From contig JAGQOI010000515.1 in assembly GCA_020427625.1 (NCBI GenBank), positions 1 to 30,532 on the forward strand: a DNA stretch of 30,532 nt, given 5' to 3'. Source of the stretch: Phycisphaerales bacterium (lineage in GTDB: Bacteria > Planctomycetota > Phycisphaerae > Phycisphaerales > SM1A02). Position numbers and translations under genes: made by a program. The notes beneath the pieces were generated by a model. The model had not been told where the DNA came from and did not search any database. It worked only from the letters and a program-made list of their open reading frames with translations. Shown here in pieces: positions 2,888 through 8,517 of this stretch. Position 1 is the stretch's first letter; every line of letters begins with the position of its first letter.

Positions 2888-3400
2888 TCACGCCGTCTCG
2901 TCGCGCCGGCGCTCGTAGCGGATCACGGCCGGCTCCGAACCTTCGCCGATGAAGCGGAAGCCGCACTTCGCAAGGACGCCGATCGACGGCGCGAGTTCGG
3001 GCCGCGTCTCGGCGATGACGCGGGTGACCGACGCGTCGGCGAAGGCGCGGGCGATGAGCGCGCGGGTCGCCTCCGTCGCGTAGCCGCGCCGACGATGGGC
3101 GGGCAGCATGCTGTACCCGACCTCGACCGTGCCGCTCGCGTCCGGCGGGCCCTTGTACCCGGCGGTGCCGATGAGCGTGCCGTCGCACAGCACGTAGGAC
3201 ATCCACCAGTCGGGCGCGTCGGGATGGGCGCGGACCTGCGTGCGGGTCCATTCGAGGGCGCCTCGTTCGAGGAGTTCGGGCGGCCAGTCGTCGGGGACAT
3301 CGGCGTCGAGCGCGCGGGCGAGGTCGGCGCGGCCGCGCAGATCGGCGTCGAGCAGCGCGACGGTCGCGGGCACGAGAGTGAGACGTTCGGTGCGGATCAC
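2888..3400 (-). CDS. GNAT family N-acetyltransferase (RimJ/RimL-like)
   Basis: C-terminal part of track ORF 2888..4423. GTG start at 3400 overlaps the truA stop (GTGA). 'IRTERL', 'VEVGYSMLPAHRRRGYATEA', 'SIGVLAKCGF'. Confidence 0.85.
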   Translation of the reverse strand: MIRTERLTLVPATVALLDADLRGRADLARALDADVPDDWPPELLERGALEWTRTQVRAHPDAPDWWMSYVLCDGTLIGTAGYKGPPDASGTVEVGYSMLPAHRRRGYATEATRALIARAFADASVTRVIAETRPELAPSIGVLAKCGFRFIGEGSEPAVIRYERRRDETA

Positions 3401-4176
3401 GGCGTCGACCCGGGGTATTCGATCCACATGAGGCACAGGCCTTCGGGCGGGAGCGTGGAACCCGCGGCGGCGCGGCTCCTGGCGTCGAGGATGGTCCTGA
3501 CATGGTCGGGCGCGTGTCGTCCGCGTCCGACGTCGACGAGCGTGCCGGCGACGATGCGGACCATGTTGTAGAGGAAGCCGCTGCCGCTGATCTCGATGCG
3601 ACAGCGATGGTCGTGCTCGGCGGTGACGGTGCAGGCGTGCACGGTGCGGACGGTGGATTCGCGTCCGTGATTGACGCGGGTGAAGGACGCGAAGTCGTGT
3701 TCGCCGACGAGGTGTTGCGCGGCCGCGTGCATGGCGTCGACATCGAGCGGGTACGGCGTCCAGTACGAGAAGTGTCGATCGAACAGGGGCGGGAGGAGGC
3801 CGTCGCGTCGACTGTGGGCGATGGCGTAGCGGTAGCCCTTGGAGACGGCGTCGGAGATGGGGCTGAAGCGTTCGTCGACGAGTTCGATGGCGCGGACCTG
3901 GAGGTCGTCGGGCAGGCGCGAGTTGAGGGCGGCGGCGAGTCGGGGGAGTTCCCAGTCGCGCTCGATGGTGAAGGCGGCGACCTGTCCCTCCGCGTGCACG
4001 CCGGAGTCGGTGCGGGAGGCGCCGACGACGCGGACGTTCTCGCGGCAGACGTGACGGGCGGTCTCCTGGAGCACGAGCTGCACGGTGCGCAGCTCGCCTT
4101 TGACGGCGTCGTGCTGCATCTGCCAGCCGTGGAAGTCGGTGCCGTCGTAGGCGATGGTGAGCTTGTAGCGGGGCAT
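3397..4176 (-). CDS. truA: tRNA pseudouridine(38-40) synthase
   Basis: Real start is ATG at 4176 inside track ORF 3397..5721. 'YKLTIAYDGTDFHGWQ', 'GASRTDSGVHAEGQV', 'GEHDFASF', 'GSGFLYNMVRIVAG', 'PPEGLCL'. Confidence 0.96.
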   Translation of the reverse strand: MPRYKLTIAYDGTDFHGWQMQHDAVKGELRTVQLVLQETARHVCRENVRVVGASRTDSGVHAEGQVAAFTIERDWELPRLAAALNSRLPDDLQVRAIELVDERFSPISDAVSKGYRYAIAHSRRDGLLPPLFDRHFSYWTPYPLDVDAMHAAAQHLVGEHDFASFTRVNHGRESTVRTVHACTVTAEHDHRCRIEISGSGFLYNMVRIVAGTLVDVGRGRHAPDHVRTILDARSRAAAGSTLPPEGLCLMWIEYPGSTP

Positions 4177-4193: not shown

Positions 4194-4538
4194 TCAGGAC
4201 CGGGCATCGGCGGGCGCGATGTAGCCGCACTCGGGACATCGTCCGGTCTCGGCGACGGAGAGGTCGTATCCGCAGCGGAGGCATTGCGGCGTCGAGACGG
4301 GGGTGAGCCAGCGGGCGACGGCGCGTCCGAAGAACGCGAGCAGCAGGCCGAATGCGCCGAAGATGACCGGCTGCGCGAGGACGAGGATGACCGAGATCGT
4401 CGGCACCCGTCCGCGCACGCCACCCACTTCGAGGACGGCGAGGAACGAGCGGTAGACGGCGTAGAGGACGAGGAGCAGGGCGATGGTTCGGACGCAGATG
4501 AGGGCGCGTTCGCGTCGGAGGGTCCATCGGTCGGCCAT
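4194..4538 (-). CDS. Small membrane protein with C-terminal zinc ribbon
   Basis: Two hydrophobic segments followed by 'CLRCGYDLS...CPECG'. Co-oriented within the operon. Confidence 0.65.
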   Translation of the reverse strand: MADRWTLRRERALICVRTIALLLVLYAVYRSFLAVLEVGGVRGRVPTISVILVLAQPVIFGAFGLLLAFFGRAVARWLTPVSTPQCLRCGYDLSVAETGRCPECGYIAPADARS

Positions 4539-4553
4539 GGTTCGACTCCGGGA

Positions 4554-5690
4554 TCAGTATCCGAACAGATTGGGTTGCGCGAACATGCCGGCCTCTTCGA
4601 AGTAGGTGAGCGCCTCGTCGACGGACGCGAAGATCTTCGTCGCGGTCTCGGTGATGAACGGGCTGGGGTTCTTCTTCGGCTTCCAGACGACGTAGACTTC
4701 CTTGGTGTGTTCCCAGGCGTGCTGGAGTTCGCGCTCGACGCCGCTGGAGAGTCCGGGGATGCCGCCGGGGAGTTCGGGGATGAGCGAGCAGATCATGTCG
4801 GCCTGGTCGATGAGCTTGAAGTCGCGCATGTAGATCTGGCCGTCGATGTCGCCGGCGATGTCGATGATCTCGCGGACGGCGACGCGGATGGGGCGCGTGT
4901 CGCCGGAGCGTCCGCCGAAGGCGTGGGGCTGGACGTCGATGAAGTCGCGTCCCTCGCGGGCGGCGGCGATGCCTCGCTCGAGGAGGAGCTTCTCGTCGAC
5001 GTCGCCGGGATCGAACGCGATGAAGTGCTTGGCGAGTTCGGCGCGGAAGTGGTCGATCTCGGCGAGGACGTCGGGCATGTCGACGACGTGGCTCATGGGG
5101 AAGGACGGGTAGACCTTGCGCATCTCGGGTCGGGTGAGCATCCGGTAGCAGGTCTCGACGGACTCGCGCTGTCGTCCGCGGCTGAGGATGTAGAAGCTGT
5201 TCGGGCAGCCCATGGCCTGGGCGAGCAGTTCGGTCGCGAGGATCTCCTCTTCGCGCCAGACCATGCAGTCCTTGAGGGTCGCGTCGATGTCGTGTTCGTC
5301 GTGCAGGCGCTGGTGGACGACCTCGATGTTGTCGACGAGGCAGATGAACATGTTCGCCTGGAGCTTCTGCATCTGGTCGAAGTCGAAGGCGCTGAAAAGG
5401 CCGTGGCGCCAGCGGAACGTCGCGTGCGTGTTGACGGCGATGTTGGGATGGTCGGCGACGGGATGACTCTCGGCGATGATGTCCTTGAAGGCGGCGCGTC
5501 GGAGGGAGTTGAGCCGGCTGAGGGGCAGATCGAGGATGCGGCCGGGTCGGACGTCGGCGCCTTCGCGGTACATCATGTTGCCGACGTGGAAGATGTCGAC
5601 GTGCACGCCCCGCTCGCCGGCCATGGTCGCGACGGCGTTGAGGTACGGCTTCTTGTCCATCCCGATCTGACCGGTGATGACGGCGCGCAT
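4554..5690 (-). CDS. Two-domain protein: archaeal-type adenylate-kinase-like P-loop domain plus nucleoside 2-deoxyribosyltransferase-like domain
   Basis: ATG at 5690. N-terminal 'VITGQIGMDK', 'HVGNMM' and 'IAVNTHAT' parallel archaeal AdkA 'VVTGVPGVG', 'NFGTVM' and 'VIVDTHST'. C-terminal 'KVYPSFP...RDFKLIDQADMI...SSGVERELQHAWEHTKEV' parallels the NDT/DNPH1 fold. Confidence 0.65.
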   Translation of the reverse strand: MRAVITGQIGMDKKPYLNAVATMAGERGVHVDIFHVGNMMYREGADVRPGRILDLPLSRLNSLRRAAFKDIIAESHPVADHPNIAVNTHATFRWRHGLFSAFDFDQMQKLQANMFICLVDNIEVVHQRLHDEHDIDATLKDCMVWREEEILATELLAQAMGCPNSFYILSRGRQRESVETCYRMLTRPEMRKVYPSFPMSHVVDMPDVLAEIDHFRAELAKHFIAFDPGDVDEKLLLERGIAAAREGRDFIDVQPHAFGGRSGDTRPIRVAVREIIDIAGDIDGQIYMRDFKLIDQADMICSLIPELPGGIPGLSSGVERELQHAWEHTKEVYVVWKPKKNPSPFITETATKIFASVDEALTYFEEAGMFAQPNLFGY

Positions 5691-5754
5691 GGGCGGATCT
5701 CCTGGGTTCCCGGGCGACCAAGGGTACCCGGAGGCGACGGACCTGACGAATGGA

Positions 5755-6726
5755 TCAGGTCGCGGGATCGTCCGCGGGCCCGATCGCTTCGCGCAGCAGT
5801 CCGAGGAGTCCGACGGTGATGTCGAAGAACTCCGGCGCTCGGCGCGACGCGGTCGCGCTGCCGCCGTGGGCGAGGTCGAAGACGACGCCGCCCGGATGGA
5901 AGGAGACGTCGACGATCTCGTCCCACGGCACCATGATCGCGTCGTCGCCGATGATCGCGTCGTCGTCGTCGTCGGGGTCGATGATGAGACCGTCGGCACA
6001 GACGGCGAAGCCGGTCGTGTCGTCGGACCCGGGCCATTCGCCGGCGGCGGCGAAGACGATCGAGATCGGCGCCGGCACGAGCATCGCGCCGACGAGGCTC
6101 ACGAGGCCGCGCCCGAGCCGCCGGGGCCCGAACCCGTCCGCGGCCGTCGCGGGCAGGCGGACGATGACTTCGGTCCGGAGGCGTGTCCGCAGGCGGGCGG
6201 CGCGACCGGGACACATCGCGACGATGATCGCATCGTACAGCTCGAGATCCGGGCGGACGGGCGGCAGGTGGATGGCGCGGCCACGCCGCGGGCGCACGCG
6301 CACGTGCGCGTCGGGGTACGTGAGCTGGACGTCGGCGATGTCGTCCCAGGGGATGGTGCGGGTGCGTCCGATCGTGGCGAGCACGAGCGCGTGTTCGTGC
6401 AGCCGGATGCGCGTGAGCAGGTCGCGCAGCAGGAGTCGCCCGACGAGCTGGGCGGCGACGATGGCGCCGGTGATCGCGCCGACGAGGACGGGCACGTCGG
6501 AGGATGCGGCGGCGTGCCCGAAGAGCATGGCGACGAGCATGCCGATGCCGCCGCCCGCCATGGCGCAGGCGATGGTCAGGACGGCGGTGACGGCGAGGTA
6601 GAGCGTGCCGATGCGCAGTCGGTTGAACGTCGACCGCCGCAGTTCGACGAGGAGCGGCCCGGGGTCCGGCGCGGCATCGAGGGCGGGATGCGTCAGCGCG
6701 TCGGGATCGGGGGTGAAGTCGGACAT
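5755..6726 (-). CDS. Hypothetical membrane protein with two putative bacterial PH-like domains
   Basis: Hydrophobic pairs each followed by 'RIRLHEHAL...TIPWDDIADV' and 'FAVCADGL...MVPWDEIVDV'. Start uncertain (6726 or 6765). Confidence 0.55.
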   Translation of the reverse strand: MSDFTPDPDALTHPALDAAPDPGPLLVELRRSTFNRLRIGTLYLAVTAVLTIACAMAGGGIGMLVAMLFGHAAASSDVPVLVGAITGAIVAAQLVGRLLLRDLLTRIRLHEHALVLATIGRTRTIPWDDIADVQLTYPDAHVRVRPRRGRAIHLPPVRPDLELYDAIIVAMCPGRAARLRTRLRTEVIVRLPATAADGFGPRRLGRGLVSLVGAMLVPAPISIVFAAAGEWPGSDDTTGFAVCADGLIIDPDDDDDAIIGDDAIMVPWDEIVDVSFHPGGVVFDLAHGGSATASRRAPEFFDITVGLLGLLREAIGPADDPAT

Positions 6727-6860
6727 GGCGGGTGGGATGGAGAGCGGGGGCATGTCCGGAAGCACACCAGAAGGGTAGGCCGCGGCGACGCGAGGCGGGA
6801 TCGCCGAGTTGGGACAGTTCCCGGGACAGTTCCCGGGACAGGTCCCGGAACTGTCCCAGA

Positions 6861-6869
6861 TGTGGATAA
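6861..6869 (-). promoter_or_regulatory. Consensus DnaA box (TTATCCACA on - strand)
   Basis: + strand reads TGTGGATAA. Sequence match only; function not shown. Confidence 0.45.
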
Positions 6870-7011
6870 CTCAGTTTGGGACAGTTCCCGGAACTGTCCC
6901 AAGTCCAGTCTCGACGACATCGGGCGCACCGCGATGGACCTGGTCGTGGGCCGGCGACCTGCCACCCGCGTGCCGAACTCGCGTTGGGACAGGTCCCGGA
7001 ACTGTCCCAAT

Positions 7012-7020
7012 TGTGGATAA
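7012..7020 (-). promoter_or_regulatory. Consensus DnaA box (TTATCCACA on - strand)
   Basis: Second TGTGGATAA, at the same position in the second repeat unit. Sequence match only. Confidence 0.45.
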
Positions 7021-7101
7021 CTCGGTTTGGGACAGTTCCGGGAACTGTCCCAAATGCCGTCCCGACGTGGTCGGGGCGGGCGCCGTGGCGGGAACGGACG
7101 A

Positions 7102-8517
7102 CTACAGCAGGACTTCCGCGCCGGCGTCGATGCGCTCGGGGAGGTCCGCGACGCGGAGGTCGGCGGGGGCGAGGGCCGTGAGCGGGCTGATCTCGATCTT
7201 CGCCGCCGCGCGACCGTCGGCGGTACGGGCGACCGTCACGCCCGCGGACTCGAGCCAGTTCGCGGCCCGGTCGGACTGCAACTGGTGCGAGGTCGCGACC
7301 GAGTCCGTGCCGCTCGCGTTCTTGATCGGCGCGAACTCCTCGACGCGTCCGGTCTCGTAGACGATCGACGACGACGCGAAGGGGATCGCATCGAAGATGA
7401 ACATCTCGAGCTTCACGGCGTTCGCGGCGGCGGGTTCGACGAGCTCGCCACGCTCGTCGACATACGGCACCTTCTTCAGGGCGCGGTGGAACGGGAGCGT
7501 GAGGTCGGACGTCATGCGCTCCACGAAGTCGACGCCGATGAGATGGATCGCGATGGAGCCGGCGTTGAAGGTGAGTCGACCGTCGGGGTTGCGGGCGGCC
7601 GCGAGGGCGGGCGGGAGGTCGGAGTACTCGATCACGGCGGTTCGTCCGTCGACGCGGGCGAAGACGCCGACCTTCTCGTCGGGCCCGGCCTTGGCGACCA
7701 TCTTCGAGGACATCTCGCCGGAACTGTCGGGCGCGCCGACGTGCAGGCCGATGAACAGCGGGTCGACGATGCGCACGAGGGGGTTGTCGACCTGGAAGTA
7801 CGAGATGTGCTCGATCCCCCGAGCGCCCATGTCGGCCAGCGCGCCGCTCGCCCGCAGCGCACGAAGCGCGCCGCCGTGTCCGTCGGGATTGAGGGCGAGC
7901 GCACCCGGTGCGGCGAGGAGCAGTCTGCCCGTCGCAGCGTCGATGGACGGCATCGTGCCCTGGGGGAACATGAAGATGTTGCGGCGGCTCAGACCGAAGC
8001 AGTTGTTGTCCTCGAAGAACCGACGCGTGTCGGCGTCGTTCGCCGGACTCGTCATGATGTACCACGGGATCGTGACGCCGTACGTCTTCCCGGCGGCGGC
8101 GATCTGCTCGGCGAACACGCGAAAGAGCGGCTTGCCCGTCACCACCGTCGCGGGAAACGTGCCCTTCGGACCGTTCCAGCCCAGACGAGTGCCCTGGCCG
8201 CCCGCAACGGTGAACGCGGCGACCTTGCCGGCGCGGATGATCTCGGCGCCCCGCGCGGCGTACGACGCGGCGTTATACGTTCCGGCCGGATCGTGCGGGT
8301 AGTACGGCGCCGGTTCGAGATCGTCGGGCACGGTCACGGGTGTGTCGTGTCGGACGTACCGGTCGATGAGGGCGTCGAGCGCGTCGAAGTCGATGGCGTC
8401 GAGTTCGTCGAGCAGCGCACCGAGCGCGCGGGCGTCGAGCCGGTCGGCGAAGGCGAGGAGATGCGCCTGGCCGTGCTGGGAAAGGACGCGGCGAAGGGTC
8501 TCGAGGCGTTTGGACAT
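7102..8517 (-). CDS. UDPGP type 1 family nucleotidyltransferase (UDP-N-acetylhexosamine pyrophosphorylase-like)
   Basis: 'VAGGQGTRLGWNGPKG', 'IPWYIMTS', 'NPDGHGG', 'YFQVDNPL', 'EKVGV', 'IEYSDL', 'KLEMFIFD', 'EFAPIKNA' are the UAP1/AGX-type motifs. Confidence 0.9.
   Translation of the reverse strand: MSKRLETLRRVLSQHGQAHLLAFADRLDARALGALLDELDAIDFDALDALIDRYVRHDTPVTVPDDLEPAPYYPHDPAGTYNAASYAARGAEIIRAGKVAAFTVAGGQGTRLGWNGPKGTFPATVVTGKPLFRVFAEQIAAAGKTYGVTIPWYIMTSPANDADTRRFFEDNNCFGLSRRNIFMFPQGTMPSIDAATGRLLLAAPGALALNPDGHGGALRALRASGALADMGARGIEHISYFQVDNPLVRIVDPLFIGLHVGAPDSSGEMSSKMVAKAGPDEKVGVFARVDGRTAVIEYSDLPPALAAARNPDGRLTFNAGSIAIHLIGVDFVERMTSDLTLPFHRALKKVPYVDERGELVEPAAANAVKLEMFIFDAIPFASSSIVYETGRVEEFAPIKNASGTDSVATSHQLQSDRAANWLESAGVTVARTADGRAAAKIEISPLTALAPADLRVADLPERIDAGAEVLL

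What the first reader, a model, noticed from the sequence alone, without database searches (positions are those of the whole stretch)
4554..5690. Archaeal-type NMP-kinase-like domain fused to a nucleoside deoxyribosyltransferase/N-glycosidase-like domain
Seen: the N-terminal ~175 aa align by eye with archaeal AdkA landmarks (VITGxxGxxK, GxMM, VNTH). The Walker A is altered (GQIGMDKK instead of GxxGxGK[ST]). The C-terminal half carries the NDT/DNPH1/MilB pattern: an early Tyr-x-Ser (YPSFP), 'D-x3-I-x2-AD', and 'SGVxxE' with the Glu at the nucleophile position. Known: that fold cleaves or exchanges N-glycosidic bonds of (modified) nucleotides. Inference: a bifunctional or nucleotide-sensing enzyme for salvage, sanitation or depletion of unusual NMPs. 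I recognise no characterised protein with this architecture.
Basis: partly seen in the sequence, partly recalled or inferred. Interest (0 to 1): 0.68.

Follow-up and report, generated by a model that had tools for sequence, protein, structure and literature searches.

The report
Kinase-like/DNPH1-like deoxynucleotide glycosidase fusion
This is a real, very strongly conserved, unstudied housekeeping gene of Phycisphaerae bacteria that joins an archaeal-type adenylate-kinase-like domain to a DNPH1-like domain, and it most likely cuts the base off deoxynucleotides to feed deoxyribose-5-phosphate into central metabolism.

Summary
Window 4554-5690 (-) encodes a 378-aa protein. Residues 1-188 have the archaeal adenylate-kinase fold (6ln3, Z 21.1). 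Residues 189-372 have the nucleoside deoxyribosyltransferase/DNPH1 fold (Z 11-15). The DNPH1 catalytic set is kept: Tyr194, Asp290, Ser315 and Glu321. The kinase half keeps the P-loop Lys and the archaeal active-site His89. It lacks the GK[ST] of Walker A, a conserved Walker-B Asp and most LID arginines.

The gene is single-copy and is found in 131/149 good Phycisphaerae genomes. It was not found full-length in 187 other Planctomycetota genomes or in viral contigs. Distant two-domain homologues occur in archaea and Chloroflexi.

New clue: in 13 genomes (three families) the next gene is deoC, the deoxyribose-5-phosphate aldolase. deoC is widespread in the class, while deoB and pyrimidine-nucleoside phosphorylase were found in none of 151 genomes.

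Best reading: a dNMP N-glycosidase that supplies deoxyribose-5-phosphate, with a nucleotide-binding kinase-like domain that regulates it or feeds it. This is not a defence gene. No characterised member was found.

The scan has noted this family before on other DNA, with the same fold reading.

The parts
4554..5690 (-). Whole gene, 378 codons plus the stop at 4554-4556
   Evidence: Full-length homologues are 76-83% identical.
5699..5703 (-). Shine-Dalgarno-like AGGAG, 8 nt before the ATG
   Evidence: Read directly from the sequence.
5127..5690 (-). N-terminal domain, residues 1-188, with the archaeal adenylate-kinase fold
   Evidence: VIA-align gives 6ln3 Z 21.1. Foldseek gives E 1.4e-9. The family profile hits 6ln3 at E 5.8e-17.
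5649..5672 (-). Atypical P-loop G7-Q-I-G10-M-D-K13-K14
   Evidence: G7, G10 and K/R13 are conserved. There is no Ser/Thr after the Lys.
5424..5426 (-). His89 in the NTHA motif, equivalent to the conserved active-site His of archaeal adenylate kinases
   Evidence: At least 90% conserved. It aligns to DTHA of 6ln3 and 1ki9. The role of this His is described in PMC9635829.
5244..5258 (-). W145-R146-E147-E148-E149, the most conserved motif of the kinase-like half
4557..5126 (-). C-terminal domain, residues 189-378, with the NDT/DNPH1 fold and a ~40-residue insertion (about residues 229-270)
5109..5111 (-). Tyr194 in KVYPSFP, at the position of the NDT/DNPH1 catalytic Tyr (DNPH1 Y24; MilB has Phe17 here)
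   Evidence: Invariant. The PF05014 match in family member P0323 starts at IYLSYPIT, profile position 1. The ranges of the structural alignments agree. The Tyr/Phe rule is from PMC10603095.
4821..4823 (-). Asp290 in the RD motif, equivalent to the DNPH1 general acid Asp80
   Evidence: HMM alignments to Rcl and 4jen. At least 90% conserved. The role of Asp80 is from PMC10603095.
4728..4748 (-). S315-S-G-V-E-R-E321: the phosphate-binding Ser and the nucleophile Glu, with the same S-x-G-V-x-x-E spacing as Rcl
   Evidence: alignments. Conservation. The roles of S98 and E104 are from PMC10603095.
4194..4538 (-). Downstream 114-aa membrane plus zinc-ribbon protein, possibly co-transcribed; no functional link shown
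   Evidence: A homologue sits at the same position in L010. It was detected in only 8 of 69 related loci.
3397..4176 (-). truA, the recurrent downstream neighbour within order Phycisphaerales only
   Evidence: truA follows the gene on the same strand in 35 of 69 loci. It does so in 0 of 20 loci from other orders.

Best explanation
The gene encodes a housekeeping two-domain enzyme.

C-terminal domain (inferred function): a DNPH1/Rcl-type N-glycosidase acting on 2'-deoxynucleoside 5'-monophosphates.
- Glu321 attacks C1' to form a covalent deoxyribosyl-5-phosphate-enzyme intermediate.
- Asp290 protonates the leaving base and then activates water.
- Ser315 holds the 5'-phosphate.
- Tyr194 disfavours a 2'-OH.
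- The products are a free base and 2-deoxyribose-5-phosphate. DeoC then splits the latter into glyceraldehyde-3-phosphate and acetaldehyde.

N-terminal domain: an archaeal-adenylate-kinase-like domain that still binds a nucleotide or phosphate, through the P-loop Lys13, Arg64, His89, Arg93, Arg128 and Arg146. It has lost several hallmarks of phosphoryl transfer. Most likely it acts as an adenylate or deoxynucleotide sensor, or as an oligomerisation module that gates the glycosidase. Less likely, it is a working kinase that feeds the glycosidase.

Shown: the folds, the residue equivalences, the conservation, the distribution and the gene context. Inferred: the substrate, the chemistry and the role of the kinase-like half.
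For: - Folds: AdkA Z 21.1; NDT/DNPH1/MilB Z 11-15; model pLDDT 94. An independent ESM Atlas model of a homologue superposes at TM 0.97.
- Catalytic Asp/Ser/Glu align to Rcl and to CMP N-glycosidase 4jen. Tyr194 sits at the start of the NDT profile. All four are invariant or nearly so in 74 sequences down to 28% identity. Their roles are taken from PMC10603095.
- Context: bona fide deoC (TIGR00126, 197-228 bits against a cut-off of 117) lies directly downstream on the same strand. Comparing searches gives 13 such genomes in 9 genera and 3 families.
- deoC is over its cut-off in 131/151 Phycisphaerae genomes. deoB was found in 0/151. Pyrimidine-nucleoside phosphorylase was over its cut-off in 0/151. 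The classical source of deoxyribose-5-phosphate was therefore not found.
- Core-gene behaviour: 131/149 good genomes have the gene, mostly in one copy. It is 79% identical between two genomes whose PhoU and TruA are 62% and 55% identical.
- Canonical Adk, Tmk, Cmk and Gmk are all present, so this gene does not replace one of them.
- Kinase half: P-loop Lys is replaced by Arg in 13/74 sequences, the Walker-B position varies (N/D/S/T/C), and only one of the LID arginines is kept.
Against: - No activity has been measured for any member.
- The deoC adjacency is confined to related families and may stem from one ancestral arrangement. In the window's own order the neighbour is truA instead.
- Co-occurrence with deoC is loose: 13 genomes have the gene without deoC, and 13 have deoC without the gene.
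- deoC was not found in the window's own genome, which is only 72% complete.
- An archaeal-type phosphopentomutase or a deoxyribokinase could supply deoxyribose-5-phosphate. Neither was searched for.
- The very strong conservation of the kinase-like site (H89, WREEE) would also fit real catalysis.
- The second-subunit contributions to the DNPH1 active site could not be checked.
Confidence: 0.55

Rival explanations
1. A true bifunctional kinase-glycosidase. The N-domain phosphorylates imported deoxynucleosides with ATP, or interconverts dNDP and dNMP. The C-domain then cleaves the dNMP. Together they would replace the nucleoside phosphorylase plus phosphopentomutase route to deoxyribose-5-phosphate.
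For: - The active-site His89, Lys13, Arg64, Arg93, Arg128, Arg146 and the acidic WREEE motif are highly conserved.
- DeoA and DeoB were not found although DeoC is present.
- The DNPH1-type Ser315 demands a 5'-phosphate, which a kinase would provide.
- A fusion of a salvage enzyme with an adenylate kinase has a precedent, HGPRT/AMPK (PMC7326950, listed).
Against: - P-loop Lys is replaced by Arg in 13/74 members. No Ser/Thr follows it. The Walker-B Asp is not conserved.
- Three of the four LID arginines of archaeal AKs are missing.
- The fold is that of an NMP kinase, not of a known nucleoside kinase.
Confidence: 0.25
2. A ribonucleotide N-glycosidase, that is an AMP/CMP nucleosidase in the manner of MilB/BcmB, LOG or PpnN, gated by energy charge through the adenylate-kinase-like domain.
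For: - MilB (Z 11.2) and the LOG-like 1rcu (Z 9.5) are also structural neighbours.
- CMP N-glycosidase 4jen is the best PDB sequence hit of the C-domain profile, though only at E 0.47.
- An AMP/ATP-binding domain would suit energy-charge control.
Against: - Tyr194 is invariant, whereas the ribo-specific MilB has Phe17; the F17Y mutation shifts MilB towards deoxyribose.
- The deoC neighbour points to a deoxyribose product.
- The LOG motif PGGxGTxxE is not matched.
Confidence: 0.1
3. A phospho-deoxyribosyltransferase that exchanges bases on dNMPs (DmtZ-like) for base salvage, followed by phosphorylation of the new dNMP by the kinase half.
For: - NDTs proper are the closest structural matches (7o62 Z 15.0).
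- A natural dAMP transferase of this superfamily, fused to another nucleotide enzyme, exists in phages (PMC12884076).
Against: - The deoC adjacency fits hydrolysis to free deoxyribose-5-phosphate.
- The kinase hallmarks are degenerate.
- The usual NMP kinases are all present.
Confidence: 0.07
4. An anti-phage or nucleotide-depleting effector (TIR/NDT-like NADase or dNMP depletion) triggered through the kinase-like sensor.
For: TIR (8fz9, Z 9.6) and ThsB (E 0.52) appear among the distant matches.
Against: - It is a single-copy core gene in 131/149 genomes.
- It evolves more slowly than its housekeeping neighbours.
- There is no PADLOC or PHROG hit.
- No relative was found in viral contigs.
- The neighbours are housekeeping genes.
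Confidence: 0.03

Closest known systems
DNPH1 / Rcl (2'-deoxynucleoside 5'-phosphate N-hydrolase 1; PDB 2khz, 4p5e, 8os9)
   Same: - Same flavodoxin-like NDT fold (Z 11.7).
- Same Tyr / Asp / Ser-x-G-V-x-x-Glu catalytic layout, with the phosphate-binding Ser in place of the Asp of NDTs.
   Different: - DNPH1 is a ~150-aa single-domain dimer of animals.
- This protein carries a ~40-residue insertion and an N-terminal kinase-like domain.
- Sequence similarity is only marginal (E about 0.5-2).
- The base-recognition residues H56 and R30 were not mapped.
- No activity is known.
Nucleoside 2'-deoxyribosyltransferases (PF05014; PDB 7o62, 6evs, 1f8x, 1s2d)
   Same: These are the best structural matches of residues 188-372 (Z 11.4-15.0). 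They share the nucleophile Glu, the Asp and the Tyr.
   Different: NDTs bind nucleosides through an Asp where this protein has Ser315. The Pfam score stays under the gathering cut-off (best member seen 26.7 against 28.8 bits; this protein has no hit).
Archaeal trimeric adenylate kinase AdkA (PDB 6ln3, 1ki9, 1nks, 7owe)
   Same: - The fold over 186 residues (Z 21.1, 22% identity).
- The P-loop position.
- The NMP-binding G-x-x-M segment.
- The archaeal active-site His and the beta-hairpin.
   Different: - Walker A lacks GK[ST].
- The Asp of DTHA is Asn or variable.
- The LID Arg cluster is reduced to one Arg.
- NCBIfam PRK04040 scores 20 bits against a cut-off of 155.
- A canonical bacterial Adk exists in the same genomes.
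MilB / BcmB CMP and hmCMP N-glycosidases (PDB 4ohr, 4jen)
   Same: Fold Z 11.2. The Ser and Glu are aligned. They are NMP-specific hydrolases.
   Different: They have Phe where this family has the invariant Tyr194. They are single-domain enzymes of nucleoside-antibiotic pathways.
Phage NDT-like fusions (DmtZ-DutZ) and kinase+PF05014 fusions seen in the ESM Atlas
   Same: An NDT-superfamily domain acting on dNMPs is fused to a second nucleotide enzyme. Language-model neighbours include Thymidylate_kin/dNK + PF05014 proteins (these are leads only).
   Different: The partner domains differ. No homologue of this family was found in viral contigs. No PHROG was hit.

Membership tests
Archaeal adenylate kinase (AdkA, NCBIfam PRK04040) | NMP-kinase fold of the archaeal type | tested here: met
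   6ln3 Z 21.1, rmsd 2.0 A over 186 residues. Profile E 5.8e-17.
Archaeal adenylate kinase (AdkA, NCBIfam PRK04040) | Walker A G-x-P-G-x-G-K-[ST] | tested here: not met
   The protein reads GQIGMDKK. Family-wide, position 12 is D/G/N/E, position 13 is K57/R13 of 74, and position 14 is not S/T.
Archaeal adenylate kinase (AdkA, NCBIfam PRK04040) | Conserved active-site His (OdinAK H85) | tested here: met
   H89 is at least 90% conserved and aligns to DTHA. The feature is described in PMC9635829.
Archaeal adenylate kinase (AdkA, NCBIfam PRK04040) | LID arginine cluster R-x2-R-D-x2-R-x-R | tested here: not met
   Only R128 aligns. The rest of the segment is acidic or variable.
Archaeal adenylate kinase (AdkA, NCBIfam PRK04040) | Score over the curated family cut-off | tested here: not met
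   20.2 bits against a cut-off of 155.
Archaeal adenylate kinase (AdkA, NCBIfam PRK04040) | ATP:AMP phosphotransferase activity and a trimeric state | not testable with these tools
   This needs enzyme assays and SEC or cryo-EM.
NDT superfamily (Pfam PF05014 Nuc_deoxyrib_tr) | Flavodoxin-like NDT fold | tested here: met
   7o62 Z 15.0, 7m5h 13.8, 6evs 13.2, 1f8x 11.4.
NDT superfamily (Pfam PF05014 Nuc_deoxyrib_tr) | [quoted passage not shown] | tested here: met
   E321 aligns to the Glu of Rcl, 4jen and 4hx9. It is invariant in the C-domain alignment A2.
NDT superfamily (Pfam PF05014 Nuc_deoxyrib_tr) | Pfam gathering score | tested here: not met
   This protein has no PF05014 hit. Of 73 relatives, 59 hit at E <= 1, the best at 4.9e-7. 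The members checked individually score 25-27 bits against a cut-off of 28.8.
DNPH1/Rcl-type dNMP N-hydrolase | Ser (not Asp) six residues before the Glu, binding the 5'-phosphate | tested here: met
   S315 aligns to the Ser of Rcl and of 4jen. It is at least 90% conserved. The role is from PMC10603095.
DNPH1/Rcl-type dNMP N-hydrolase | General acid Asp (human D80) | tested here: met
   D290 aligns and is at least 90% conserved.
DNPH1/Rcl-type dNMP N-hydrolase | Tyr (human Y24) that selects deoxyribose | tested here: met
   Y194 is invariant. The PF05014 match in P0323 begins at IYLSYPIT. The alignment ranges are consistent. The exact column equivalence is partly inferred.
DNPH1/Rcl-type dNMP N-hydrolase | Phosphate-binding Ser from the partner subunit (S128') and the base-reading H56 and R30 | not tested
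   No multimer model and no model coordinates were available.
DNPH1/Rcl-type dNMP N-hydrolase | Hydrolysis of a dNMP to base plus deoxyribose-5-phosphate | not testable with these tools
   The only support is indirect: deoC adjacency.
MilB/BcmB CMP N-glycosidase | Phe at the Tyr position, allowing a 2'-OH | tested here: not met
   Tyr194 is invariant. The rule is from PMC10603095.
Known anti-phage defence proteins (PADLOC) | Match to a defence-family model | tested here: not met
   No hit at E <= 0.1.

The most novel reading that the evidence does not exclude
The fusion is the missing entry step of a DNA and deoxynucleoside catabolic route that needs neither a phosphorylase nor a mutase.

- The kinase-like domain makes or captures dNMPs.
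- The DNPH1-like domain releases deoxyribose-5-phosphate directly.
- That product feeds DeoC. In lineages that have sugar-phosphate (SPU) microcompartments, it would feed those organelles too.

The supply of deoxyribose-5-phosphate to those organelles is currently assumed to come through DeoB (PMC11585597). This reading would define a new, widespread pathway in Phycisphaerae, archaea and other lineages.
Probability: 0.2. Interest if true: 0.75.

Novelty: new variant of a known kind. Interest (0 to 1): 0.55.

Why it matters
- This is a family of several thousand sequences. It is near-universal in one bacterial class and present in archaea. It is annotated only as 'AAA family ATPase', 'adenylate kinase' or 'hypothetical', and I found no studied member.
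- If the reading is right, it shows that DNPH1-type dNMP hydrolysis is a mainstream prokaryotic reaction. So far that reaction is known as a nucleotide-pool sanitiser in animals.
- It would also explain how organisms with DeoC but without DeoA or DeoB obtain deoxyribose-5-phosphate.
- It offers a natural example of a kinase fold recruited to control, or to feed, a glycosidase.
- It would correct the 'adenylate kinase' label that some sources give these proteins.

Tried and rejected
- Single-sequence AlphaFold failed (pLDDT 40). It was replaced by a model built on a 74-sequence alignment.
- Replacement of a housekeeping NMP kinase is rejected. Adk, Tmk, Cmk and Gmk are found in essentially all relatives.
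- A pseudouridine link through truA was considered. The adjacency holds only in order Phycisphaerales (35/69 loci) and in 0/20 loci of other orders. The NDT mechanism also does not suit a C-glycoside, so I dropped it.
- The archaeal synteny (Rpr2, a hypothetical gene, a VTT/DedA gene, then this gene, beside EMG1) gave no functional lead.
- No neighbour is conserved class-wide other than deoC in three families.
- The viral-contig scan, PADLOC and PHROGs were all negative.
- The genome-contig scan returned only close Phycisphaerales relatives, so it added nothing on the wider taxonomic range.
- The unrooted quick tree separates a Phycisphaerae clade from an archaeal-context clade. It cannot give the direction of transfer.
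The geometry between the two active sites could therefore not be measured.
Full report
**The gene.** The minus-strand ORF at 4554-5690 encodes 378 residues. Its ATG at 5690 lies 8 nt after AGGAG. The longer open frame that reaches back to 5999 overlaps the end of the upstream gene. It is not used by homologues, which are 376-378 aa long and begin at the same Met.

**Sequence-level checks.**
- Alone, the protein hits only Pfam AAA_17 (residues 30-132, E 1.9e-6).
- It hits the archaeal adenylate kinase model PRK04040 far below its cut-off (20 bits against 155).
- It hits archaeal Adk 6ln3 at E 0.002.
- An exhaustive search found 879 relatives, 140 of them at E <= 1e-30. Many are full-length two-domain proteins at 28-46% identity.
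- A 74-sequence alignment (A1) raises the 6ln3 match to E 5.8e-17. It also brings up weak NDT hits for the C-terminal half.
- Scanned one by one, 59 of 73 C-terminal domains hit PF05014 at E <= 1, the best at 4.9e-7.

**Structure.** With A1 as input, AlphaFold gives pLDDT 94.2 and pTM 0.92. An ESM Atlas model of a homologue superposes on it at TM 0.97, so the two-domain arrangement is reproducible.
- Residues 1-188 match archaeal adenylate kinases: 6ln3 at Z 21.1 and rmsd 2.0 A, OdinAK at Z 17.5.
- Residues 188-372 match nucleoside deoxyribosyltransferases: 7o62 at Z 15.0, 7m5h at 13.8, 6evs at 13.2, 1f8x and 1s2d at 11.4.
- The same residues also match Rcl/DNPH1 (11.7), MilB (11.2), YtoQ (11.2), a TIR domain (9.6) and a LOG-like protein (9.5).

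**Catalytic residues of the C-domain.** HMM alignments of the C-domain profile give the following equivalences.
- Asp290 lies on the Asp of Rcl and of CMP N-glycosidase 4jen.
- Ser315 lies on their Ser.
- Glu321 lies on their Glu, with the same S-x-G-V-x-x-E spacing as in Rcl.

For human DNPH1, D80 is the general acid, E104 forms the covalent intermediate, and S98 binds the 5'-phosphate. Y24 corresponds to Phe17 of the ribo-specific MilB, and the F17Y mutation shifts MilB towards deoxyribose (PMC10603095). Tyr194 is invariant here. In family member P0323 the PF05014 match starts at profile position 1, on IYLSYPIT. The alignment ranges also put Tyr194 at the NDT Tyr7 / MilB Phe17 position. Y194, D290, S315, G317 and E321 are invariant or at least 90% conserved down to 28% identity. 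The domain therefore carries the full DNPH1-type set and the signature of a deoxyribonucleotide substrate. That last point is an inference.

**The kinase-like half.**

*Conserved:* G7, G10, Lys13, G37, R64, His89, F92-R93-W94, R128 and W145-R146-E-E-E149. His89 aligns with the active-site His that PMC9635829 describes as a hallmark of archaeal AKs.

*Lost or variable:*
- Lys13 is Arg in 13 of 74 sequences, and no Ser/Thr follows it.
- The position before it is D/G/N/E rather than Gly.
- The Asp of DTHA is N/D/S/T/C.
- Of the archaeal LID motif R-x2-R-D-x2-R-x-R, only the first Arg aligns.

I read this as a domain that certainly binds a phosphorylated ligand. Its phosphotransfer chemistry is doubtful. 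I put sensor or pseudokinase at about 55% and active kinase at about 35%.

**Distribution.**
- The gene is single-copy in 39 of 41 close relatives.
- With the profile it is found in 131 of 149 good genomes of class Phycisphaerae.
- In a phylum-wide sample it is found in 14 of 14 class members. No full-length copy was found in 187 other Planctomycetota genomes.
- It is more conserved than its neighbours. Between this genome and the L010 genome it is 79% identical, against 62% for PhoU and 55% for TruA.
- Distant members sit in archaeal contigs next to Nep1/EMG1, Rpr2, PurP and topoisomerase VI genes. One is named as Thermoprotei and another as Chloroflexi.
- A quick unrooted tree separates a Phycisphaerae clade from the archaeal-context clade.
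- No relative was found in viral contigs. PADLOC and PHROGs give nothing.
- Canonical Adk, Tmk, Cmk and Gmk are all present in relatives, so this is an additional function.

**Context.** In this window the gene is followed by a 114-aa membrane plus zinc-ribbon gene and by truA. truA follows the gene on the same strand in 35 of 69 Phycisphaerales loci but in 0 of 20 loci from other orders. I treat that adjacency as inherited synteny.

Clustering the flanking ORFs of those 20 loci gave one recurring neighbour. It is a gene directly downstream on the same strand that scores 197-228 bits on TIGR00126, deoxyribose-phosphate aldolase, against a cut-off of 117. Comparing the coordinates shows this adjacency, with a gap under 300 nt, in 13 genomes of 9 genera in three families. 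The flanks of the pair are unrelated housekeeping genes: a release factor and a chorismate-binding enzyme. Deoxyribose-5-phosphate is the product of a DNPH1-type reaction and the substrate of DeoC.

**The deo pathway in the class.**
- deoC is over its cut-off in 131 of 151 genomes.
- deoB (phosphopentomutase) was found in 0 of 151, while the controls ring in 6 of 14 reference genomes.
- Pyrimidine-nucleoside phosphorylase was over its cut-off in 0 of 151.

The classical upstream steps of the deo pathway were therefore not found, and this gene is a natural candidate for the supply of deoxyribose-5-phosphate.

*Caveats:*
- These genomes are kin, so the adjacency may have arisen once.
- Co-occurrence is loose: 120 genomes have both genes, 13 have only this gene, 13 have only deoC, and 5 have neither.
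- deoC was not found in the window's own genome, which is 72% complete.
- PGM-type phosphopentomutases and deoxyribokinase were not searched for.

**Literature.** I found no paper on this architecture. The nearest precedents are:
- the phage NDT-like dAMP transferase DmtZ fused to DutZ (PMC12884076);
- an HGPRT/adenylate-kinase fusion (PMC7326950);
- the proposal that SPU microcompartments consume deoxyribose-5-phosphate, which is presumed to come through DeoB (PMC11585597).

**Earlier notes of this scan.** The scan has flagged the same family in many other genomes, with the same fold reading. Follow-up agents called it a kinase-like/DNPH1-like fusion. I reached the fold and deoC results before reading those notes. 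They agree with my reading but are not independent evidence.

**Verdict.** Its focus on defence and on unusual nucleotides is not supported. The most likely function is a housekeeping dNMP N-glycosidase that feeds DeoC, with a nucleotide-binding kinase-like domain as regulator or feeder. This is a new variant of a known kind of enzyme. It is uncharacterised and directly testable.

Noticed in passing
Genomes G331, G285, G361, G267, G255, G249, G311, G343, G367, G324, G291 and G355: In families f80, f87 and f90 the best deoC matches lie in open frames of 414-577 aa. That is far longer than a ~220-aa DERA. They may be RpiB-DeoC chimeras of SPU microcompartment loci, or simply long open frames in GC-rich DNA.
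   Followed up: no
window 4194-4538 (-): A 114-aa protein with a hydrophobic N-terminal part and a C-terminal CxxC...CxxC zinc ribbon starts 16 nt after the stop of the fusion gene. A homologue (46% identity over 50 aa) sits at the same place in L010. It was detected in only 8 of 69 related loci.
   Followed up: partly
L008 4481-7131, L093 3370-6086, L094 3466-6131: The archaeal homologues lie last in a conserved same-strand string: Rpr2, a ~190-aa hypothetical gene, a VTT/DedA membrane protein, then the fusion gene (a 4-nt overlap in L008). The string is divergent from EMG1/Nep1. In L093 an adenine deaminase follows directly.
   Followed up: partly
Alignment A1, P-loop column 13: A subclade that includes the archaeal-context and Chloroflexi sequences has a more canonical G-x-S-G-S-G motif but with Arg instead of the P-loop Lys (for example GISGSGRSS). 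It also has a C-domain loop that is 5 residues shorter before the Ser-x-Gly-Val motif.
   Followed up: no
Class-wide survey: In the 151 Phycisphaerae genomes sampled, deoC is common. deoB and pyrimidine-nucleoside phosphorylase were not found at all. This is an apparent gap in the classical deo pathway, whatever this gene turns out to do.
   Followed up: partly
window 6693-7400, both strands: Several overlapping ORFs translate into repeated GTVPGTVP / GQFRELSQ-like peptides. This reflects the repeat element that another note of the scan describes at 6809-7054. They are unlikely to be genes.
   Followed up: no
G107, G202 and G223 (family f51): Three non-Phycisphaerae Planctomycetota genomes have only short matches (E about 4e-6) to profile positions 275-361. 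These would be stand-alone NDT-like proteins related to the C-domain.
   Followed up: no
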